64,000 bases of DNA, taken from positions 14,484 to 78,483 of the forward strand of contig CAJVYQ010000008.1 in NCBI GenBank assembly GCA_913009825.1, in the 5' to 3' direction. The position numbers were made by a program, and so were the translations under genes. The stretch is from an uncultured Deferribacteres bacterium. GTDB taxonomy: Bacteria; Zhuqueibacterota; JdFR-76; DREG01. A model generated the notes under the pieces. It saw nothing but the letters and a program-made list of their open reading frames with translations. It was not told where the DNA came from and did no database searches. The number at the start of each line of letters is the position of its first letter. Position 1 is the stretch's first letter. Of this stretch, positions 8,117 to 62,247 are shown one piece after another.

Positions 8117-8397
8117 AACTATTCAGGCATGCTCTATATATTACCTAAATTGAGCGATTGTAGGGCGATTCGCTGAATCGCCAACCGGATTTACATTAAA
8201 AATGAAAATCCGTTTAGCCATTTAAAACAAACTCAAAAACAAGAGAATCGCCAATTCAGGTATTAACTATAATAACACTTCGACTAAGTTTATCCTGAAC
8301 TTATCGAAAAAGAAGGCTCGGCATGGTTTTTCTGCCCGGTCTGAGCGAAGCCGAAAGCCTACTGTGCGTTAAATAACCGGCATACCTGAATAGGTAC
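8117..8397. repeat. Family-4 MITE-like element (TIR GTAACTAYTCAGG) interrupted by a nested family-1 MITE
   Basis: The left terminus caactattcaggcatgc (8117-8133) pairs with the right terminus gcatacctgaataggtac (8380-8397). The internal segment cttcgactaagtttatcctgaac matches the copy at 15420-15604. Confidence 0.7.
8143..8261 (-). repeat. Family-1 MITE copy A (119 bp) with 3-bp target-site duplication ATT
   Basis: Its termini are acctaaattgagcgattg and gaatcgccaattcaggt, and it contains the internal perfect hairpin ggcgattcgctgaatcgcc. The flanking trinucleotide att occurs at 8140-8142 and again at 8262-8264. Confidence 0.8.
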
Positions 8398-8731
8398 AAA
8401 AAGTTAGGAAAATGGATGGTTTAAATCAAGAATAATTTGGAGAAGCGAAATAGATTGATGGGTCACCGGAGCAGCGGAATACTGAATTGAACGAATGTAA
8501 CCTTTACATAATTGGAGCGATTTTTTCATTTACAAGGATGCAAATCATTAAGATTCCTGCTTTCGCAGGAATGACACTCATTATTCGCCCCGGCAGGGGT
8601 TGAACTCCTGCCCAAGCATAAGAATTTGTGGAAAAGCCGCATGTTAGCTGCTGTTTCTTAATTCCCTAAAAAATGGATAACCGTAACTTTAAAAACCATC
8701 CGGCCAGATCTCTTTTTCGAGCTAAAGCTCG

Positions 8732-8854
8732 ACCAACTGAATTACTGTTTTTGAGTTTGTTTTAAAGGTCTAACGTGTTTTCATTTTTTCAGGTAAATCC
8801 ATAGAAATCAGGTTGGCGATTCAGCGAATCGCCCTACAATCGCTCAATTTAGGT
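8732..8854 (+). repeat. Family-1 MITE copy B with a decayed left TIR
   Basis: The right half ggttggcgattcagcgaatcgccctacaatcgctcaatttaggt is intact, while the left TIR is reduced to accaactgaatt. It is inverted relative to copy A, so the pair forms roughly 100-bp inverted repeats around a 470-bp repeat-rich core. Confidence 0.7.
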
Positions 8855-20046: not shown

Positions 20047-20154
20047 AATTAGCGTCTGACCGAAAACTCTGAAAAACAGTAAAAAACGTCATTCCTGCTG
20101 TGCCCGAGGCAGGCGGGAATGACGGAAAAGTGGGGTTTTCGTTCAGGCACTATT
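20047..20154. repeat. Family-3 MITE-like element (AATTAGYGTCTGA termini with an internal GTCATTCC...GGAATGAC hairpin)
   Basis: The left terminus aattagcgtctgaccgaaaactc and the hairpin gtcattcctgctgtgcccgaggcaggcgggaatgac are present, with a degenerate right terminus gttcaggcactatt. A paralogous copy lies at 54993-55100. Confidence 0.65.
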
Positions 20155-20162
20155 TACAGCAA

Positions 20163-25474: not shown

Positions 25475-25565
25475 ACCTTTTTCACCGGTTATTATTATCA
25501 AAAAAAATTCTTCTCAGGGTGAACTGATTGAATGATTAACAGATATAAGACCATTCTTCCTTTTA

Positions 25566-25630
25566 GCCACAGAAATGAAATGCCGCAGATTTTATTAATT
25601 TTTTATTTCTGCGGCATTTCATTTCTGTGG
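25566..25630. repeat. Family-6 palindromic element (23-bp perfect arms GCCACAGAAATGAAATGCCGCAG) that may act as a bidirectional terminator
   Basis: The arm gccacagaaatgaaatgccgcag is followed by a 19-nt AT-rich loop and then ctgcggcatttcatttctgtggc. A related copy lies at 61927-61984. Confidence 0.8.
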
Positions 25631-25705
25631 CTAAAATTTGTTTTATAATTTGATGAGGCGGTTCAATGTTCCGCCAGTCTTTTTAAATGGATACACGCAC
25701 ACCTT

Positions 25706-29568: not shown

Positions 29569-29885
29569 CTCAGCCCGCCTGATAGTGAACCATCAGGCTA
29601 AGAAAAGGCAGCGCTATAAATAGCGCTGCCGGGCAGGATGCTTTAGCATCCTTTTTACTCTCAGCCCCGTGGTTCTCCACGGGGCGCCATGGCATAGATT
29701 GAGTGCTTTCTTTTTAACCCGACTGAATCAGCTCAGCCCGCCTGATAGTGAACCATCAGGCTAAGAAAAGGAAGCGCTATAAATAGCGCTGCCGGGCAGG
29801 ATGCTTTAGCATCCTTTTTACTCTCAGCCCCGTGGTTCACCACGGGGCGCCATGGCTTAGCCAGGCAGCCCGCTCGAAAGTCGGG
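29569..29885. repeat. Tandem duplication of two roughly 163-bp units of a multi-hairpin element (family 5)
   Basis: Unit 1 is about 29569-29731 and unit 2 about 29732-29885, and they are about 97% identical. Each unit carries four hairpins: cctgatagtgaaccatcagg, cagcgctataaatagcgctg, ggatgctttagcatcc and ccccgtggttctccacgggg. A related single unit sits inside 39205-39363. Confidence 0.85.
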
Positions 29886-32537: not shown

Positions 32538-32693
32538 ACCTAAATTGAACGATTCTTAGCCTGAAACAACCACCCAAAGAGTTTTGTCATTCTGCCTGCC
32601 CGACGAACCGCAGGCGGGAAAGAATCTTGTTAGTTCTGTGCGCTAAACCAACAAGATTCCTACGGAATGACATTAGAATCGCTCAATTCAGGT
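32538..32693. repeat. Family-2 MITE (same 18-bp TIR as family 1, with a different core) flanked by TSD TAG
   Basis: The termini are acctaaattgaacgattc and gaatcgctcaattcaggt. The flanks read tag at 32535-32537 and tag at 32694-32696. The core contains gtcattctgcctgcccgacgaaccgcaggcgggaaagaatc and gtcattccgtaggaatc. Confidence 0.8.
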
Positions 32694-34735: not shown

Positions 34736-35896
34736 TCATTTATGAATTGTTGCAACTACTTTCTCCGCGCCGTCTTTAAGGGTGGTAGCTACAGTAAATT
34801 CCAGGTCGGAATTATTCAGAATTTCAGCCGCTTCTTCCGCGTTCGTTCCTTGCAATCTGATGACAACCGGAACATTGATATTCACTTTGGAAACGGCATC
34901 GATCACGCCTGTGGCAACGCGGTCACAGCGAACAATGCCGCCAAAAATATTTATAAGCACTGCTTTCACGTTTTTGTCCCCCAGCAAAATTTTAAAACCG
35001 TTCTCCACAGTTTCCGCGCTGGCGGATCCGCCCACATCCAGAAAGTTGGCCGGTTCCGATCCGGCTAATTTGATAATGTCCATTGTAGCCATTGCCAGGC
35101 CGGCGCCATTCACCATGCAGCCCACTTCGCCATCCAGTTTGATGTAGTTCAGATTGTATTTGGAGGCTTCCACCTCTAACGGTTCTTCTTCGTTCAGGTC
35201 ACGGTATTCAACCAGATCTTTGTGACGAAACATGGCATTGTCATCTAAATTGATTTTTGCGTCCAGGGCAAGAACACGGCCGTCTTTAGTAACCACAAGC
35301 GGATTAATTTCCGCCAGGGATGCGTCAACGGCCACAAAAGCTTTATACAGGGCCATCAGGAACTTAACCCCGTTTTTAAACTGATCTCCGCTTAATCCCA
35401 AACCGAATGCCAGTTTTCCGGCCTGGAAGGGCAGCAATCCGGCAGCCGGATCGATATACTCTTTCAAAATCTTTTCCGGAGTTTCCGCGGCAACTTTTTC
35501 GATTTCTACGCCGCCCTCTGTGCTTGCCATGAAGACCAATTGGGATTTTGCCCGGTCTAACACCACACCGACATACAGTTCCCGCGCAATATCCATGGTC
35601 TCTTCAATCAGCACCTTATGAACCTGTTTTCCTTCCGAACCGGTTTGATGTGTAACCAGCGTCATGCCGATCATTTCGGCGGCCAGTTTTTCCGCTTCTG
35701 CAACGCTGCCGGCTAATTTCACACCGCCGCCTTTGCCGCGGCCGCCGGCATGAATTTGCGCCTTTACCACTACCTTACCGTGCAACTCTTCGGCCACCTC
35801 CCGGGCTTCACCGGGTGTAAATGCAACTTTGCCCTGCGGTACGGCTACACCGAAGCGTTTCAAAATTTCTTTTGCCTGATATTCATGAATTTTCAA
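34736..35896 (-). CDS. sucC: Succinyl-CoA synthetase beta subunit
   Basis: It has an ATP-grasp domain ([12 protein letters not shown] ... [17 protein letters not shown]). Confidence 0.93.
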
Positions 35897-35989
35897 AAGA
35901 ACCTCCGCTTAAATTTGAATTTAAAGATTGATGAATTATCAACAAAAACAACATTGTTTCACATATAACCGGTATTCACTTATTTAGAT

Positions 35990-36094
35990 CCTGAATTGAG
36001 CGATTCTAATGTCATTCCGTAGGAATCTTGTTAATTTATTGCTAATATTTAAAAAGATTCCTCCTGAATGACATGAGAATTGCTCAATTTAGGT
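35990..36094. repeat. Family-2 MITE copy (about 105 bp) abutting and providing the 3' end of the hepT remnant
   Basis: Its first 43 nt (cctgaattgagcgattctaatgtcattccgtaggaatcttgtt) are identical to the right end of the 32538-32693 copy. The right terminus gaatgacatgagaattgctcaatttaggt overlaps the hepT stop codon at 36089-36091. Confidence 0.75.
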
Positions 36095-36409
36095 ATCACA
36101 TACTTCGAAAATCACCTCTGCATTAATTTCAAAATAGTGATGACTAATAATATCATGCATCACCCTGGCTCCTTTCCAATTGATATCAGCATACAGGGAA
36201 AGAAGTTTTCCGTTGGTAATTTTATCAAAATTTTTCAGACTCTCTCCGACAGCAATTAATTGCATACAAATTGAATCTAATTTTTCCATACCGGCAGGAG
36301 AATTTGTAAAATCGGCAACATTATTTAGCGGTATAAATCTATCTCATATAATGTCCAATGACTTGAGAATTTGAGAAAGAATTTCAGAGACAAGTTCTCT
36401 ATCATACAT
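36089..36409 (-). pseudogene. hepT: HepT (DUF86, HEPN RNase) toxin gene interrupted by an in-frame TGA and with its C-terminus running into a MITE terminus
   Basis: The ATG at 36409-36407 overlaps the mntA stop. It reads MYDRELVSEILSQILKSLDII, then TGA at 36346-36344, and the same frame continues DRFIPLNNVADFTNSPAGMEKLDSIC...INWKGARVMHDIISHHYFEINAEVIFEVCDT with the HEPN Rx4-6H motif. Other genes in the window terminate on TGA, so recoding is unlikely. Confidence 0.65.
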
Positions 36410-36704
36410 CAATAACATCCCGTTCGATTCTTTTTTTCAATTGAATATTCATTCCATCACGCAATCGGATAGTATCCACTTTAACACCAAAATAGTCTTC
36501 CAGATCAACTTTAATACTACCCAGAAGAAATAAGTCCGGCTTTTTCTGTTCAACAATAATATCGATATCACTTTGTTGATCAAATGTTCCTCTCGCCACC
36601 GATCCAAAAACACCAATTTTCACAAACTGATATTTTCCTTGATATTTGTTTTTATATGGCTTTATTTTTCTTAAAATTTCAGATTGATTCATTGACAAAC
36701 TCAT
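36402..36704 (-). CDS. mntA: MntA-type minimal nucleotidyltransferase antitoxin
   Basis: The 100-aa product has the motif GVFGSVARGTFDQQSDIDIIVE (GS...DxD) and is immediately upstream of, and overlapping, the DUF86 gene. Confidence 0.8.
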   Translation of the reverse strand: MSLSMNQSEILRKIKPYKNKYQGKYQFVKIGVFGSVARGTFDQQSDIDIIVEQKKPDLFLLGSIKVDLEDYFGVKVDTIRLRDGMNIQLKKRIERDVIDV

Positions 36705-36755
36705 TATGTTGTGAAAAACCCATTTTTTTTAACTATAAGTTTCACAAATAAAAAA

Positions 36756-37718
36756 TCACAGCATGTGCACAATTCTTGTCCCGGTTAATCCTTTCATTGC
36801 ATCCACATGTTTTTCTATAGATGTGATCATTACTATTTCGCCACCCGATTCCAAAAACCGAATAGCCGCTTCTATTTTCGGCCCCATACTTCCGGCCGGA
36901 AATTGACCTGCGGCCAGGTATTTCTTTGCTTCGGCAACGGTAATTCGATCCAAAGCTTTCTGATTTGGTTTTGCATAATTGAGATAAACTTTCTCAACGG
37001 CGGTTAAAATGTAAAGTTCCCTGGCGCCGATCTCCGTGGCCAGAACAGCCGAAGCCAGGTCTTTATCGATAACACCGTCGACACCTTCATACGTGCTGTC
37101 CTTTTCGATGTAGATCGGGATACCACCGCCGCCGACGGTAATGACAATCACTCCTTCATCAAATAAACGCCGGATGGTATTTTTTTCCACAATCCGGATC
37201 GGTTTCGGGGATGGAACCACACGCCGCCAACCCCGGCCCGGGTCTTCCCTGATAGTCCATCCTCTTTCCTTTTTGAATTTTTCCACATCCTCTTTGCGGA
37301 AAAAAGGACCGACAAATTTTGTGGGATTCCGGATTGAAGGATCATCACGGTCAACGATGACCTGGGCGAGGAGGGTAACGATTTCCCGGTCTATATTTTC
37401 CCTGATCAGTTTATTTTGCAGCGATTGTCCGATCATGTAGCCCATACCGCCACATAAATCGGCTACCAATACGCCAAGAGGTACCGGCGGCACCTGGTCG
37501 CGGGCAATCTCTACACGGATGAGAGCATTGCCTATTTGAGGGCCATTGCCATGACTAACTGCCAGCAAATAACCCCGATCAATCATTTCCCGCACACCAA
37601 GCAAACTACGCCTTGTATTGGCAAATTGCTGGTAAATGTTTCCTTCCTCGAATTCACGAGTTATAGCATTTCCCCCTAAGGCGACAACAGCTCGCTTATT
37701 CGCATCTATATTTCTCAT
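36756..37718 (-). CDS. arcC: Carbamate kinase
   Basis: The 320-aa product aligns end to end with enterococcal carbamate kinase (VVALGGNAI, VSHGNGPQIGN, NPTKFVGPFF, GRGWRRVVPSPKPIRIVE, GGGGIPI, GVDGVIDKDLAS, PGSMGPKIEAAIRFLESGG). Confidence 0.9.
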   Translation of the reverse strand: MRNIDANKRAVVALGGNAITREFEEGNIYQQFANTRRSLLGVREMIDRGYLLAVSHGNGPQIGNALIRVEIARDQVPPVPLGVLVADLCGGMGYMIGQSLQNKLIRENIDREIVTLLAQVIVDRDDPSIRNPTKFVGPFFRKEDVEKFKKERGWTIREDPGRGWRRVVPSPKPIRIVEKNTIRRLFDEGVIVITVGGGGIPIYIEKDSTYEGVDGVIDKDLASAVLATEIGARELYILTAVEKVYLNYAKPNQKALDRITVAEAKKYLAAGQFPAGSMGPKIEAAIRFLESGGEIVMITSIEKHVDAMKGLTGTRIVHML

Positions 37719-39204: not shown

Positions 39205-39363
39205 GTAACTATTCAGGTGTTTTCTTTCAATCTTTTCACCTTGCCGTGAACGACAAGGCTAAGAAATGAAATGGCGCTAAAGCGTCCTATTTACGATAGC
39301 ATCCTTCAGGATGCTTTCATGTCTTAGCCTGAGGGTTCACTCTCAGGCGACCTGAATAGTTAC
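39205..39363. repeat. Family-4 TIR element (159 bp) carrying a family-5-type hairpin core
   Basis: The TIR gtaactattcaggtg (39205-39219) pairs with cgacctgaatagttac (39348-39363). The core (ggctaagaaatgaaatggcgctaaagcg...ggatgctttcat...cctgagggttcactctcagg) parallels the unit of the 29569-29885 tandem. Confidence 0.75.
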
Positions 39364-42184: not shown

Positions 42185-42303
42185 ACCTGAATTGAGCGAT
42201 TCTCTTGTTTTTGACCTTGTTTTTTTTACTAAACGGATTTTCATTTTTAATACAAATACGGCTGGCGATTCAGCGAATCGCCCTACAATCGCTCAATTCA
42301 GGT
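42185..42303 (+). repeat. Family-1 MITE copy C (119 bp) with TSD CTC, nested inside a second palindromic element
   Basis: The termini are acctgaattgagcgattc and gaatcgccctacaatcgctcaattcaggt (the last 18 nt are the TIR), with the internal hairpin ggcgattcagcgaatcgcc. The flanks read ctc at 42182-42184 and ctc at 42304-42306. The outer inverted repeats are ctctaaaaagacccggcaggttt (42158-42180) and aaacctgccgggtctaaaac...tttttagagt (42353-42396). Confidence 0.85.
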
Positions 42304-45962: not shown

Positions 45963-46082
45963 ACCTAAATTGAGCGATTTTCTTGTTTTTAAGCTTAATG
46001 CTGAAACCAAAAAGGTTTTCATTTCTAATAGTAATCTCTGCTGGCGATTCAGCGAATCGCCTTACAATCGCTCAATTTAGGT
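45963..46082 (+). repeat. Family-1 MITE copy D (120 bp) with TSD TTG
   Basis: The termini are acctaaattgagcgatt and aatcgctcaatttaggt, with the internal hairpin ggcgattcagcgaatcgcc. The flanks read ttg at 45960-45962 and ttg at 46083-46085. Confidence 0.85.
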
Positions 46083-54670: not shown

Positions 54671-54992
54671 TTGATAATACCCTATTCCAAATACAGCTCC
54701 TCCGGTAGATACGGGAAATAACATGCCAACGCCAATTTCCTGCGCATCTCCAAACGTAATCTGCTGATCGGTCAAAAATAGTTCTGAAGATGAAAGCAAA
54801 AGTAAACTTTCATCCTGAACCGTTTGATACCAATCTCTACCATGAGAAACTGCCATAGGATTCTTCAAGTAAATGGAACGATTCAACCCACGAAATACAC
54901 GAAGCACACAAAAGGTTCTGCAAAATGAAAAAGCTCTGAATTCTGATGTCTTTCATTTATTTTGCGGGCATTCCGACTAGTTACCATTAAAT

Positions 54993-55100
54993 AATTAGTG
55001 TCTGACCGAAAACTCCTTTTTTCTGTCATTCCCGCCGTGCCTGAAGCAGACAGGCGAAAGCGGGAATCCATAACATCTTGTTTTCATTCAGACACTAATT
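54993..55100. repeat. Family-3 MITE (108 bp, 21-bp TIR AATTAGTGTCTGAMYGAAAAC) between mraZ and rsmH
   Basis: The left terminus aattagtgtctgaccgaaaac pairs with the right terminus gttttcattcagacactaatt. The internal hairpin is gtcattcccgccgtgcctgaagcagacaggcgaaagcgggaatc. Confidence 0.8.
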
Positions 55101-61833: not shown

Positions 61834-61926
61834 CGGGATAAGCCTTTGTTAAGAAAGAAGATCGTACAATTATATCCGATTATTTATGTTAGTACACAGA
61901 AAACTGTTGAAGATACCTGTTTTTAA

Positions 61927-61984
61927 CTACAGAAATGAGACATCACAAAAAAAAATCATTTCTGCGGCATCTCATTTCTGCGGC
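61927..61984. repeat. Family-6 palindromic element, second copy
   Basis: cagaaatgagacatc ... an A9 loop ... tcatttctgcggcatctcatttctgcggc shares the GCCGCAGAAATGA core with 25566-25630. Confidence 0.7.
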
Positions 61985-62247
61985 TAAAAGTAATCGATTT
62001 TCATTCCCGGATCCATTACGATTAAACTTATTCAATCTTCAAAGGATGAAGCAGCTACCGAATTTCCAGTCTCTACTCTCTCCCTTTTCCCGGAATAGAT
62101 ATTGCCTTGCGGGCATATTCACCGGCAAGAATTTTTCGGATGCCCGGCAGCGAGAAATCGGCTAACTGCAATTTAAACCGGTGCAAAATCTTTTGCAAGA
62201 TATTTTTTATTCGCGGTTCGAAACATTGCCATTTGGCATGCGGCATC

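What the first reader, a model, noticed from the sequence alone, without database searches (positions are those of the whole stretch)
36089..36704. MntA/HepT toxin-antitoxin locus in which the HEPN toxin is disabled twice
The mntA gene is intact, but the hepT frame contains an in-frame TGA 21 codons in (36346-36344). The same frame then continues through a recognisable DUF86 core (Rx4-6H motif). In addition, the last residues and the stop codon of hepT are encoded by the terminus of a family-2 MITE (35990-36094). This suggests the insertion replaced the native C-terminus. Other genes here end on TGA (for example mntA itself), so recoding is unlikely. This looks like a toxin gene caught in the act of decay next to a retained antitoxin-like nucleotidyltransferase.
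Basis: partly seen in the sequence, partly recalled or inferred. Interest (0 to 1): 0.6.

Follow-up and report, generated by a model that had tools for sequence, protein, structure and literature searches.

The report
Decaying MntA/HepT toxin-antitoxin cassette
A small, recently acquired toxin-antitoxin gene pair in an uncultured sediment bacterium has a dead toxin gene (early stop codon, mutated catalytic arginine, end cut off beside a small mobile element) next to a still-readable antitoxin gene; this is a clear but ordinary case of gene decay.

Summary
mntA is intact. It most likely starts at 36692 (96 aa), not 36704. The hepT frame (36409-36089, minus strand) has one in-frame TGA at 36346-36344. 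Its last sense codon and TAA stop lie in the terminus of a 106-bp MITE (35989-36094).

The "recognisable Rx4-6H motif" is broken: the catalytic Arg, present in 120/120 protein homologs and all readable metagenomic relatives, is His here (CAT, 36157-36155). So the toxin carries three lesions. The missing C-terminal helix (16-23 codons) is absent, not displaced. This MITE copy alone has no trace of the family's 3-bp target duplication. Only about 12-29 nt separate it from ancestral DNA.

The TGA is not an assembly error. Contigs from a MAG, DRR093004 and SRR7786999 carry the same sequence.

The 783-790 nt block (mntA, hepT remnant, MITE) is a lineage-specific insertion between arcC and sucC. A sister strain and 39 KSB1-type relatives lack it.

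Of 80 metagenomic relatives, 79 have intact hepT of 118-137 aa.

There is no evidence that mntA is under stronger constraint than hepT. This is a genuine but ordinary pseudogenised type VII TA toxin.

The parts
36402..36692 (-). mntA, a minimal nucleotidyltransferase antitoxin. It is 96 aa plus a TGA stop; an alternative upstream ATG at 36704 would give 100 aa. The ORF is intact and the GSX10DXD motif is intact (GSVARGTFDQQSDID).
   Evidence: ORF list. Pfam PF01909 at 40.6 bits and PF18765 at 37.2 bits. NCBIfam MntA_antitoxin at 37.7 bits, below the equivalog cut-off of 60. Homologs are 94-97 aa and start at this Met.
36089..36409 (-). hepT pseudogene (HEPN/DUF86 RNase toxin). It has 105 sense codons in one frame, interrupted by one TGA and ending on a MITE-derived TAA. 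Its start overlaps the mntA stop (ATGTATGA).
   Evidence: Translation. Pfam PF01934 at 37.4 bits. It is 72-74% identical to intact homologs of 122-127 aa. A family HMM aligns positions 1-111 in a single frame at 190 bits.
36344..36346 (-). Premature TGA at codon 22, inside helix 1.
   Evidence: At the aligned codon, 57 of 80 relatives encode Leu and TTA is the commonest codon (28 of 80). TTA>TGA is a single transversion. Helix 1 spans residues 4-25 in the model of an intact homolog.
36155..36157 (-). CAT (His85) in place of the catalytic Arg of the RX4HXY motif.
   Evidence: Arg at this position in 120/120 protein homologs and in all 79 metagenomic relatives long enough to show the motif. CGT is used by 11 of those 79, so CGT>CAT is one transition. 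The residue aligns with the motif Arg (RNIAVH) of SO_3166, PDB 5YEP_B. R97G abolishes SO_3166 toxicity (PMC4621449).
36134..36136 (-). Tyr92 codon, the Y of RX4HXY. This is the residue that MntA AMPylates in characterised systems. It is retained here.
   Evidence: Alignment. Motif definition and Y104 polyadenylylation in PMC7641770.
35989..36094 (.). 106-bp MITE of hairpin type, with terminal inverted repeats ACCTRAATTGAGCGATT. Its terminus supplies the last sense codon (ACC) and the TAA stop of the hepT remnant. The sucC-proximal terminal base is mutated and the copy has no target-site duplication.
   Evidence: The other copies at 32538-32693, 42185-42303 and 45963-46082 have perfect 3-bp duplications (TAG, CTC, TTG), and 8143-8854 has an imperfect one (ATT/ATA). 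This copy has AGA versus ATC.
35969..35988 (-). Short spacer between the MITE and the right-hand direct repeat. It is too short to hold the missing 16-23 hepT codons, and no remnant is detectable.
   Evidence: The family HMM gives only negative scores on all three frames of the sequence after the MITE. BLAST homology with the sister strain resumes at 35959, and by alignment probably at about 35976.
35956..35968 (.). Right copy of a 13-nt imperfect direct repeat (GTTTCACATATAA) at the sucC-side breakpoint of the inserted block.
   Evidence: family D6. Breakpoints. A chance match of 12/13 or better between the two junction windows occurs about 0.3-0.5% of the time.
36739..36751 (.). Left copy of the 13-nt direct repeat (GTTTCACAAATAA) at the arcC-side breakpoint.
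36756..37718 (-). arcC (carbamate kinase), the upstream neighbour. It is an ancestral gene that ends on TGA.
34736..35896 (-). sucC (succinate-CoA ligase beta subunit), the downstream neighbour. It is an ancestral gene that lies directly next to arcC in relatives.

Best explanation
The locus is a horizontally acquired minimal MntA/HepT (MNT/HEPN, type VII) toxin-antitoxin cassette. It was inserted between the ancestrally adjacent arcC and sucC genes of an uncultured KSB1/Zhuqueibacterota-like bacterium, and it is now decaying.

In an intact module, HepT is an RNase whose active site is the RX4H motif. MntA neutralises it by AMPylating the Tyr of RX4HXY through its GSX10DXD centre. This mechanism is established for SO_3165/SO_3166 and is inferred here.

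In this window hepT is a pseudogene with three independent lesions:
(1) TTA>TGA at codon 22.
(2) The catalytic Arg85 is replaced by His.
(3) The C-terminal helix (16-23 codons) is lost at the border of a 106-bp MITE, whose terminus now supplies Thr-stop. This MITE copy lacks the family's 3-bp target duplication and has a mutated terminal base on the side where hepT sequence is missing. The loss is therefore best explained by a MITE insertion followed by an adjacent deletion or rearrangement (inferred).

mntA remains an intact, motif-complete ORF. That is the order of decay to be expected, because losing the antitoxin first would be lethal while the toxin is still active. Nothing shows that mntA is still selected. 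I consider it most likely a leftover that has not yet been hit.
For: Shown:
- Domain identities come from Pfam and from close homologs.
- The TGA lies in frame, and no frameshift occurs in the hepT frame.
- His replaces an Arg found in 120/120 homologs and in all 79 metagenomic relatives that show the motif.
- Homologs are 16-23 aa longer at the C-terminus. That tail is a confidently modelled helix, residues 108-121, pLDDT 92, in a HEPN-toxin fold; the best PDB matches are 7AE8/7AE9 at TM 0.74-0.75.
- The MITE family has 5 copies with 3-bp target duplications, absent only at this copy.
- No C-terminal remnant is detectable.
- Identical sequence occurs in three other assemblies.
- A sister strain (arcC 91% nt identity) has arcC and sucC separated by 174 nt, with no TA genes and no MITE.
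- None of 39 KSB1-type relatives has the cassette at this site; in the closest ones that carry sucC, arcC and sucC are 34-90 nt apart.
- Of 80 metagenomic relatives, 79 keep hepT intact, and 77 have mntA directly upstream with overlapping start and stop.

From the literature:
- R97G or H102A abolishes HepT toxicity (PMC4621449).
- The RX4HXY and GSX10DXD motifs and Tyr polyadenylylation are described in PMC7641770.
Against: - The order of the three lesions is unknown.
- R>H specifically has not been tested in any HepT.
- A deletion next to the MITE is inferred from the missing target duplication and the lack of space. Alternatively, the block could have arrived already truncated.
- hepT is not significantly more diverged than mntA relative to 64 paired relatives: residual -0.021, 8th percentile. 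Long neutral drift is therefore not demonstrated, and this only fits a recent inactivation.
- The three other assemblies may sample one clonal population, so they exclude an assembly error but say nothing about fixation across the species.
Confidence: 0.85

Rival explanations
1. mntA is kept by selection as an orphan antitoxin. In this reading the adenylyltransferase still works and neutralises HepT toxins encoded elsewhere in the genome or on incoming mobile elements (an anti-addiction role), or it has taken on another substrate.
For: The mntA ORF and its GSX10DXD motif are intact while the adjacent toxin carries three lesions. MntA matches models of a PADLOC candidate defence system, PDC-S09, at E = 1.7e-20.
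Against: MntA has private substitutions at 2 of 25 highly conserved columns (I74T and Y95D, the latter where 15/15 homologs have Tyr). That is the same rate as in the dead hepT, 4 of 47. MntA is among the most divergent of its family, at the 9th percentile. No HepT or MntA paralog of this subfamily is present in the 64 kb. A 291-nt ORF staying open for a short time needs no selection.
Confidence: 0.12
2. The TGA is a sequencing or assembly artefact, and hepT is really an open gene.
For: The source is a metagenome-assembled genome, and raw reads could not be inspected.
Against: The same TGA appears in contigs from GCA_011040895.1, DRR093004 and SRR7786999, which are 99.97-100% identical over 3-6 kb. 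The DRR093004 contig also carries the His codon and the MITE junction. Even without the TGA, the gene lacks its catalytic Arg and its last helix.
Confidence: 0.02
3. The TGA is decoded (as selenocysteine, by readthrough or by stop-codon reassignment), and a functional HepT variant that is naturally short is produced.
For: None beyond the fact that the frame stays open after the TGA.
Against: - TGA ends 27 of 71 long ORFs, including mntA and arcC.
- Homologs have Leu, Ile or other ordinary residues at this position, never Cys.
- The catalytic Arg is His.
- No intact homolog among 120 proteins and 79 loci is shorter than 118 aa.
- No Rfam element, including SECIS, is found in the window.
Confidence: 0.01
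4. The block was imported already damaged. The MITE and an already truncated hepT arrived together as one 783-790 nt segment, for example by microhomology-mediated insertion, and no deletion happened at this site.
For: A 13-nt imperfect direct repeat (12/13) brackets the whole block exactly at the two breakpoints of homology with the sister strain. The chance of this is about 0.3-0.5%. Only 20 nt lie between the MITE and the right repeat copy.
Against: The same MITE family is resident in this genome, with four other copies in the window, so local insertion is simpler. The repeat is short, AT-rich and was found after the fact; nine other repeats of 10-28 nt occur in the same 911 bp. No donor sequence is known.
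Confidence: 0.2

Closest known systems
Shewanella oneidensis MntA/HepT (SO_3165/SO_3166), a type VII toxin-antitoxin system (PDB 5YEP, 7AER, 6M6U, 6M6V)
   Same: - Two-gene operon with the MNT gene upstream of the HEPN gene.
- The GSX10DXD motif is present in MntA.
- The H and Y of RX4HXY are conserved, and the motif aligns with RNIAVHDY of SO_3166.
   Different: - Sequence similarity to the solved protein is marginal (E = 0.08).
- NCBIfam equivalog cut-offs are not reached: 37.7 and 15.8 bits against 60.
- MntA here is 96 aa, and intact HepT relatives are about 122 aa against 133-139 aa.
- In the window the motif Arg is His, an internal stop is present and the last helix is missing.
Aphanizomenon flos-aquae HEPN/MNT (PDB 7AE8, 7AE9)
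   Same: This is the best structural match for the model of an intact close homolog, P0004: TM 0.74-0.75, probability 1.0. The structures are a HEPN toxin and its AMPylated complex with the MNT antitoxin.
   Different: Only 16-17% sequence identity. The comparison was made with a homolog, not with the window's broken gene.
Degenerate toxin-antitoxin loci with an inactivated toxin beside a surviving antitoxin (orphan antitoxins); this comparison rests on general knowledge
   Same: The toxin is inactivated first and the antitoxin ORF survives. A mobile-element insertion is one of the inactivating events.
   Different: Nothing here differs in kind. The locus is simply an unusually well-resolved example: three separate lesions, a cassette-free sister strain and a large set of intact relatives.
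Bacterial MITEs (short non-autonomous elements with terminal inverted repeats and target-site duplications)
   Same: - Size of 106-156 bp.
- Long terminal inverted repeats that fold into a hairpin.
- 3-bp target duplications.
- Five copies in 64 kb.
- No coding capacity.
   Different: No autonomous partner or transposase was identified. There is no match in Rfam or in the plasmid collection. The hepT copy lacks its target duplication.

Membership tests
Type VII MntA/HepT (MNT/HEPN) toxin-antitoxin system | The toxin belongs to the HepT-like/DUF86 HEPN family. | tested here: met
   PF01934 at 37.4 bits against a gathering score of 23.5. The sequence is 72-74% identical to 1395 DUF86 homologs. 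The model of homolog P0004 best matches HEPN toxin structures 7AE8/7AE9.
Type VII MntA/HepT (MNT/HEPN) toxin-antitoxin system | HepT carries the RX4HXY signature (RNase active site plus the AMPylated Tyr). | tested here: not met
   The window reads H85-DIIS-H90-H-Y92. Arg is present in 120/120 homologs and in all 79 loci that show the motif. The motif definition comes from PMC7641770. The failure is a derived mutation in a pseudogene, not evidence for a different family.
Type VII MntA/HepT (MNT/HEPN) toxin-antitoxin system | The toxin ORF is complete (about 118-137 aa in this subfamily). | tested here: not met
   There is an internal TGA at codon 22, and the frame ends after residue 105 on a MITE-derived stop.
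Type VII MntA/HepT (MNT/HEPN) toxin-antitoxin system | The antitoxin is a minimal nucleotidyltransferase with the GSX10DXD motif. | tested here: met
   The sequence GS-VARGTFDQQS-DID is present. PF01909 scores 40.6 bits against a cut-off of 21. The motif definition comes from PMC7641770.
Type VII MntA/HepT (MNT/HEPN) toxin-antitoxin system | Operon layout: mntA lies directly upstream of hepT and is translationally coupled to it. | tested here: met
   There is an 8-nt overlap, ATGTATGA. The same layout is found in 77 of 80 related loci.
Type VII MntA/HepT (MNT/HEPN) toxin-antitoxin system | Equivalog-level match to NCBIfam MntA_antitoxin and HepT_toxin. | tested here: not met
   MntA scores 37.7 bits and HepT 15.8 bits against cut-offs of 60. 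The intact homolog P0006 also reaches only 31.4 bits. This is therefore a distinct subfamily of the broader MNT/HEPN group.
Type VII MntA/HepT (MNT/HEPN) toxin-antitoxin system | HepT is toxic, and MntA neutralises it by AMPylation. | not testable with these tools
   This requires expression and biochemistry.
MITE (miniature inverted-repeat transposable element) | Short, non-coding, with terminal inverted repeats, and present in several copies. | tested here: met
   There are ten TIR matches, making five elements, against 0.01 expected by chance. The arms are 45 nt and 87% complementary. Inside the 712-bp member the longest ORF is 41 aa.
MITE (miniature inverted-repeat transposable element) | A target-site duplication flanks each copy. 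| tested here: inconclusive
   Three copies have perfect 3-bp duplications (TAG, CTC, TTG). The 8143-8854 copy matches at 2 of 3 positions. The hepT copy has none (AGA versus ATC).
MITE (miniature inverted-repeat transposable element) | A cognate autonomous element or transposase with the same termini exists. | not tested
   None is present in the 64-kb window. The wider collections were not scanned for the TIR.

The most novel reading that the evidence does not exclude
MntA survives because it is useful on its own. In this reading it is an orphan adenylyltransferase that AMPylates and disarms HepT RNases encoded elsewhere or brought in by mobile elements or phages (anti-addiction or immunity). 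The inert HepT remnant would then be tolerated or used as a decoy. A related, weaker idea is that the paired private changes K82R and R85H represent a shifted catalytic arginine rather than plain loss.
Probability: 0.08. Interest if true: 0.45.

Novelty: new member of a known kind. Interest (0 to 1): 0.2.

Why it matters
The locus matters mainly as a clean, well-dated example of how toxin-antitoxin cassettes die. The toxin is hit repeatedly: a nonsense codon, an active-site change, and a truncation associated with a mobile element. The antitoxin ORF is still open. A cassette-free sister strain shows that the acquisition is recent. It is useful for annotation, since hepT should be called a pseudogene and the NCBI 'Bacteroidetes bacterium' label looks wrong. 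It also shows that a resident MITE family reshapes intergenic regions in a KSB1-type genome. It does not open a new biological question.

Tried and rejected
- **C-terminal remnant.** I looked for the missing HepT C-terminus downstream of the MITE. By eye, 'LNK*IPVICETML' resembled the homolog tail 'NKIPTLRQTIMDML'. A family HMM gave only negative scores in all three frames, and the sister-strain alignment leaves too little room. Rejected.
- **Solved structures by sequence.** The profile search found nothing at E <= 0.01. Only marginal hits to SO_3166 appeared at E <= 10.
- **Source genome and closer relatives.** The genome-contig scan with arcC found no match closer than 79% identity. The metagenome scan with HepT found no allele from the same lineage; the best was 73%. 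No intact allele from this lineage is therefore available.
- **Paralogs in the window.** There are no HepT or MntA paralogs of this subfamily.
- **Promoter and terminator scan.** The result was not above the shuffled background, and no terminators were found.
- **Rfam and plasmids.** Rfam found nothing in the window. The MITE has no match in the plasmid collection.
- **Relative-rate test.** The test for extra drift in hepT relative to mntA was not significant.
- **dN/dS.** Not attempted. The nearest homologs are 65-74% identical at the protein level, so synonymous sites would be saturated.

Full report
**1. What is in the sequence**

All features below are on the minus strand.

- An intact ORF runs from 36704 or 36692 to 36402. 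It is a minimal nucleotidyltransferase: Pfam NTP_transf_2 at 40.6 bits and Polbeta at 37.2 bits.
- Its 17 closest relatives are 94-97 aa and all start at the Met corresponding to 36692. The gene is therefore probably 96 aa, not 100.
- The nucleotidyltransferase signature GSX10DXD is intact (GSVARGTFDQQSDID).
- The mntA stop overlaps the start of the next frame (ATGTATGA). That frame reads MYDRELVSEILSQILKSLDII, then TGA at 36346-36344, and continues in the same frame to TAA at 36091-36089.
- With the stop masked, the product matches Pfam HepT-like at 37.4 bits against a cut-off of 23.5.
- It is 72-74% identical to a large family of DUF86 proteins: 1395 hits, and the 120 listed are 122-130 aa.
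- A profile of those homologs aligns positions 1-111 to a single frame at 190 bits. There is therefore no frameshift.

**2.

The TGA falls where relatives encode Leu in 57 of 80 loci. TTA is the commonest codon there (28 of 80), so a single T>G change explains it.

TGA is a normal stop in this genome. It ends 27 of 71 long ORFs, including mntA and arcC. Homologs never have Cys at this position, and Rfam finds no element in the window. Recoding is excluded for practical purposes.

At the 3' end, the last sense codon and the stop (ACC TAA) are the first six bases of the terminal inverted repeat ACCTAAATTGAGC. That repeat occurs ten times in the window, forming five elements, against 0.01 matches expected by chance. 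The five elements are:
- 8143-8854
- 32538-32693
- 35989-36094
- 42185-42303
- 45963-46082

The hepT copy is 106 bp. Its 45-nt arms are 87% complementary, and its hairpin folds at -46.8 kcal/mol, z = -9.8.

**3.

The alignment shows otherwise. Homologs read GAKAMRDIISHHYF and the window reads GARVMHDIISHHYF.

- The Arg is present in 120 of 120 protein homologs. It is also present in all 79 metagenomic relatives long enough to show the motif.
- The window has CAT (His) at 36157-36155. This is one transition from CGT, a codon used by 11 of the 79 relatives.
- The only other Arg nearby, R82, is itself a private K>R change. It gives Rx2H or Rx7H spacing, not Rx4-6H.
- A profile search of solved structures gives only marginal hits (E = 0.08). 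Both hits are the Shewanella oneidensis HepT, and they align RdiisHhY with RniavHdY.
- In that protein, R97G or H102A completely abolishes toxicity (PMC4621449). The signature of MNT-associated HEPN toxins is RX4HXY, with the Tyr polyadenylylated by MntA (PMC7641770).
- The window keeps the His and the Tyr but not the Arg.

**4. The C-terminus is gone, not merely interrupted**

- Intact relatives continue for 16-23 residues after ...EVC (consensus NKIKxLRDTIxKML...).
- None of the 79 intact metagenomic relatives is shorter than 118 aa.
- In an AlphaFold model of the intact homolog P0004 (pLDDT 92.1), this tail is the last helix, residues 108-121. The TGA lies in helix 1 (residues 4-25), and residue 85 lies at the end of the helix spanning 78-87.
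- The model's best PDB matches are HEPN toxin structures 7AE8 and 7AE9, at TM 0.74-0.75.
- Downstream of the MITE, the family profile scores negatively in all three frames.
- The MITE family makes 3-bp target duplications: TAG, CTC and TTG at three copies, and ATT/ATA at a fourth. The hepT copy has AGA versus ATC, and its terminal base on the sucC side is mutated.

Taken together, these points indicate a deletion or rearrangement at that border of the element. This step is inferred, not shown.

**5. It is not an assembly error**

The exact MntA protein is encoded on contigs from three other assemblies:
- NCBI MAG GCA_011040895.1
- ENA ERZ909563, from run DRR093004
- Logan SRR7786999

These contigs are 100%, 99.97% and 100% identical to the window over 6.3, 3.3 and 3.0 kb. 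All three carry the TGA. The DRR093004 contig also carries the His codon and the hepT-MITE junction. They may all sample one clonal population, so fixation across the species remains untested.

**6. History of the locus**

NCBI labels the MAG 'Bacteroidetes bacterium'. All 39 arcC relatives recovered from species-representative genomes are instead KSB1/Zhuqueibacterota-type MAGs, at 61-79% identity.

- None of the 39 has mntA or hepT in the fetched locus. In the closest ones that carry sucC, it follows arcC after 34-90 nt.
- A sister strain (ENA ERZ27262661, arcC 91% nt identity) has arcC, then 174 nt, then sucC. It has no TA genes and no MITE.
- BLAST homology with that strain breaks at window 36750 and resumes at 35959. 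By eye it probably resumes at about 35976.
- The block of 783-790 nt (upstream region, mntA, hepT remnant, MITE and about 20 nt) is therefore a lineage-specific insertion.
- The block is bracketed by a 13-nt imperfect direct repeat, GTTTCACA[T/A]ATAA, at 35956-35968 and 36739-36751. Such a match between the two junction windows arises by chance about 0.3-0.5% of the time. I found it after the fact, in AT-rich DNA that holds nine other short repeats, so I treat it as suggestive only.

**7. Is the antitoxin 'retained'?**

The ORF and the catalytic motif are intact, but that is all that can be said.

- At columns where at least 95% of homologs agree, HepT has 4 private changes in 47 columns: P74A, K82R, R85H and D96N. 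MntA has 2 in 25: I74T and Y95D, the latter at a Tyr found in 15 of 15 homologs. The rates are the same.
- Against 64 relatives for which both genes could be read, the window's HepT averages 62.2% identity (3rd percentile) and its MntA 46.7% (9th percentile).
- HepT is only slightly more diverged than its MntA predicts: residual -0.021, 8th percentile. This is not significant.

This fits a recent inactivation of hepT. It gives no support for stronger constraint on mntA. No paralog of this subfamily is present in the 64 kb, and the rest of the genome was not available.

**8. Mechanism and comparison with known systems**

The cassette belongs to the MNT/HEPN (MntA/HepT, type VII) kind. The evidence is the domain families, the gene order with translational coupling (also seen in 77 of 80 relatives), the GSX10DXD motif in MntA, and the H and Y of RX4HXY in HepT.

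It is a distinct and smaller subfamily. The NCBIfam equivalog cut-offs are not reached by the window's proteins or by an intact homolog. MntA also matches the PADLOC candidate system PDC-S09.

In an intact relative, HepT would cleave RNA and MntA would silence it by AMPylating the motif Tyr. This is established for SO_3165/SO_3166 and is inferred for this subfamily. In the window the toxin cannot work. Translation stops after 21 residues. Any restart product would lack helix 1, the catalytic Arg and the last helix.

A dead toxin beside an open antitoxin is the expected intermediate in TA decay, because the reverse order would kill the cell.

**9. Verdict**

There are three lesions, not two. 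The 3' end is truly missing. The acquisition is recent, and selection on mntA is unproven. This is a well-documented but ordinary pseudogene in a known kind of system.

Noticed in passing
window 35956-35968 and 36739-36751: A 13-nt imperfect direct repeat, GTTTCACA[T/A]ATAA, lies exactly at the two breakpoints of homology with the cassette-free sister strain. It brackets the whole block of mntA, hepT remnant and MITE. It could be a target duplication or a microhomology used during insertion. The chance of such a match is about 0.3-0.5%.
   Followed up: partly
window 8143-8854, 32538-32693, 35989-36094, 42185-42303, 45963-46082: A MITE family shares the 17-nt termini ACCTRAATTGAGCGATT and makes 3-bp target duplications. 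It has two internal subfamilies and a 712-bp member with no ORF longer than 41 aa inside it. No autonomous element is present in the window, and there is no match in Rfam or in the plasmid collection.
   Followed up: partly
window 36164-36166 (HepT codon 82) and 36155-36157 (codon 85): Two private substitutions lie three residues apart in the active-site helix: K82R (118 of 120 homologs have Lys) and R85H. This could be coincidence, or an arginine shifted by one helical turn.
   Followed up: no
window 36408-36410 (MntA residue 95) and 36471-36473 (residue 74): MntA carries Y95D and I74T at positions invariant in 15-16 homologs. This hints that the antitoxin may also be drifting.
   Followed up: partly
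window 29569-29697, 29732-29860, 39246-39358: Two 129-nt copies, 98% identical, lie 163 nt apart. Related inverted copies lie near 39.3 kb. This is a separate repeat family.
   Followed up: no
window 25561-25636 and 61921-61989: A perfect 29-nt inverted repeat forms a hairpin at 25.6 kb. A 94% similar arm lies at 61.96 kb. This is another dispersed palindromic element.
   Followed up: no
window 20112-20156 and 54992-55036: A 45-nt inverted pair, 84% complementary, lies 35 kb apart (GGCGGGAATGACGGAAAAG...). It may be a further repeat family.
   Followed up: no
L002 1-325, against window upstream of 39367: The DRR093004 contig is 99.97% identical to the window up to 39367 and then stops matching. 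This suggests structural variation between populations, next to the 39.3-kb repeats.
   Followed up: no
whole window; GCA_011040895.1: NCBI labels the MAG 'Bacteroidetes/Bacteroidota bacterium'. All recovered arcC relatives (61-79% identity), with the same arcC and sucC neighbourhood, are KSB1/Zhuqueibacterota-type MAGs. The label is probably wrong.
   Followed up: partly
L115 714 onwards (metagenome contig AMWB02154158.1): This is the only one of 80 related loci in which hepT is also cut short, at 71 aa, next to mntA. The background rate of broken hepT in this subfamily is therefore about 1%.
   Followed up: no
window 36402-36692 (MntA): MntA matches six models of the PADLOC candidate defence system PDC-S09 (best E = 1.7e-20). 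The intact HepT homolog P0006 matches no PADLOC model.
   Followed up: no
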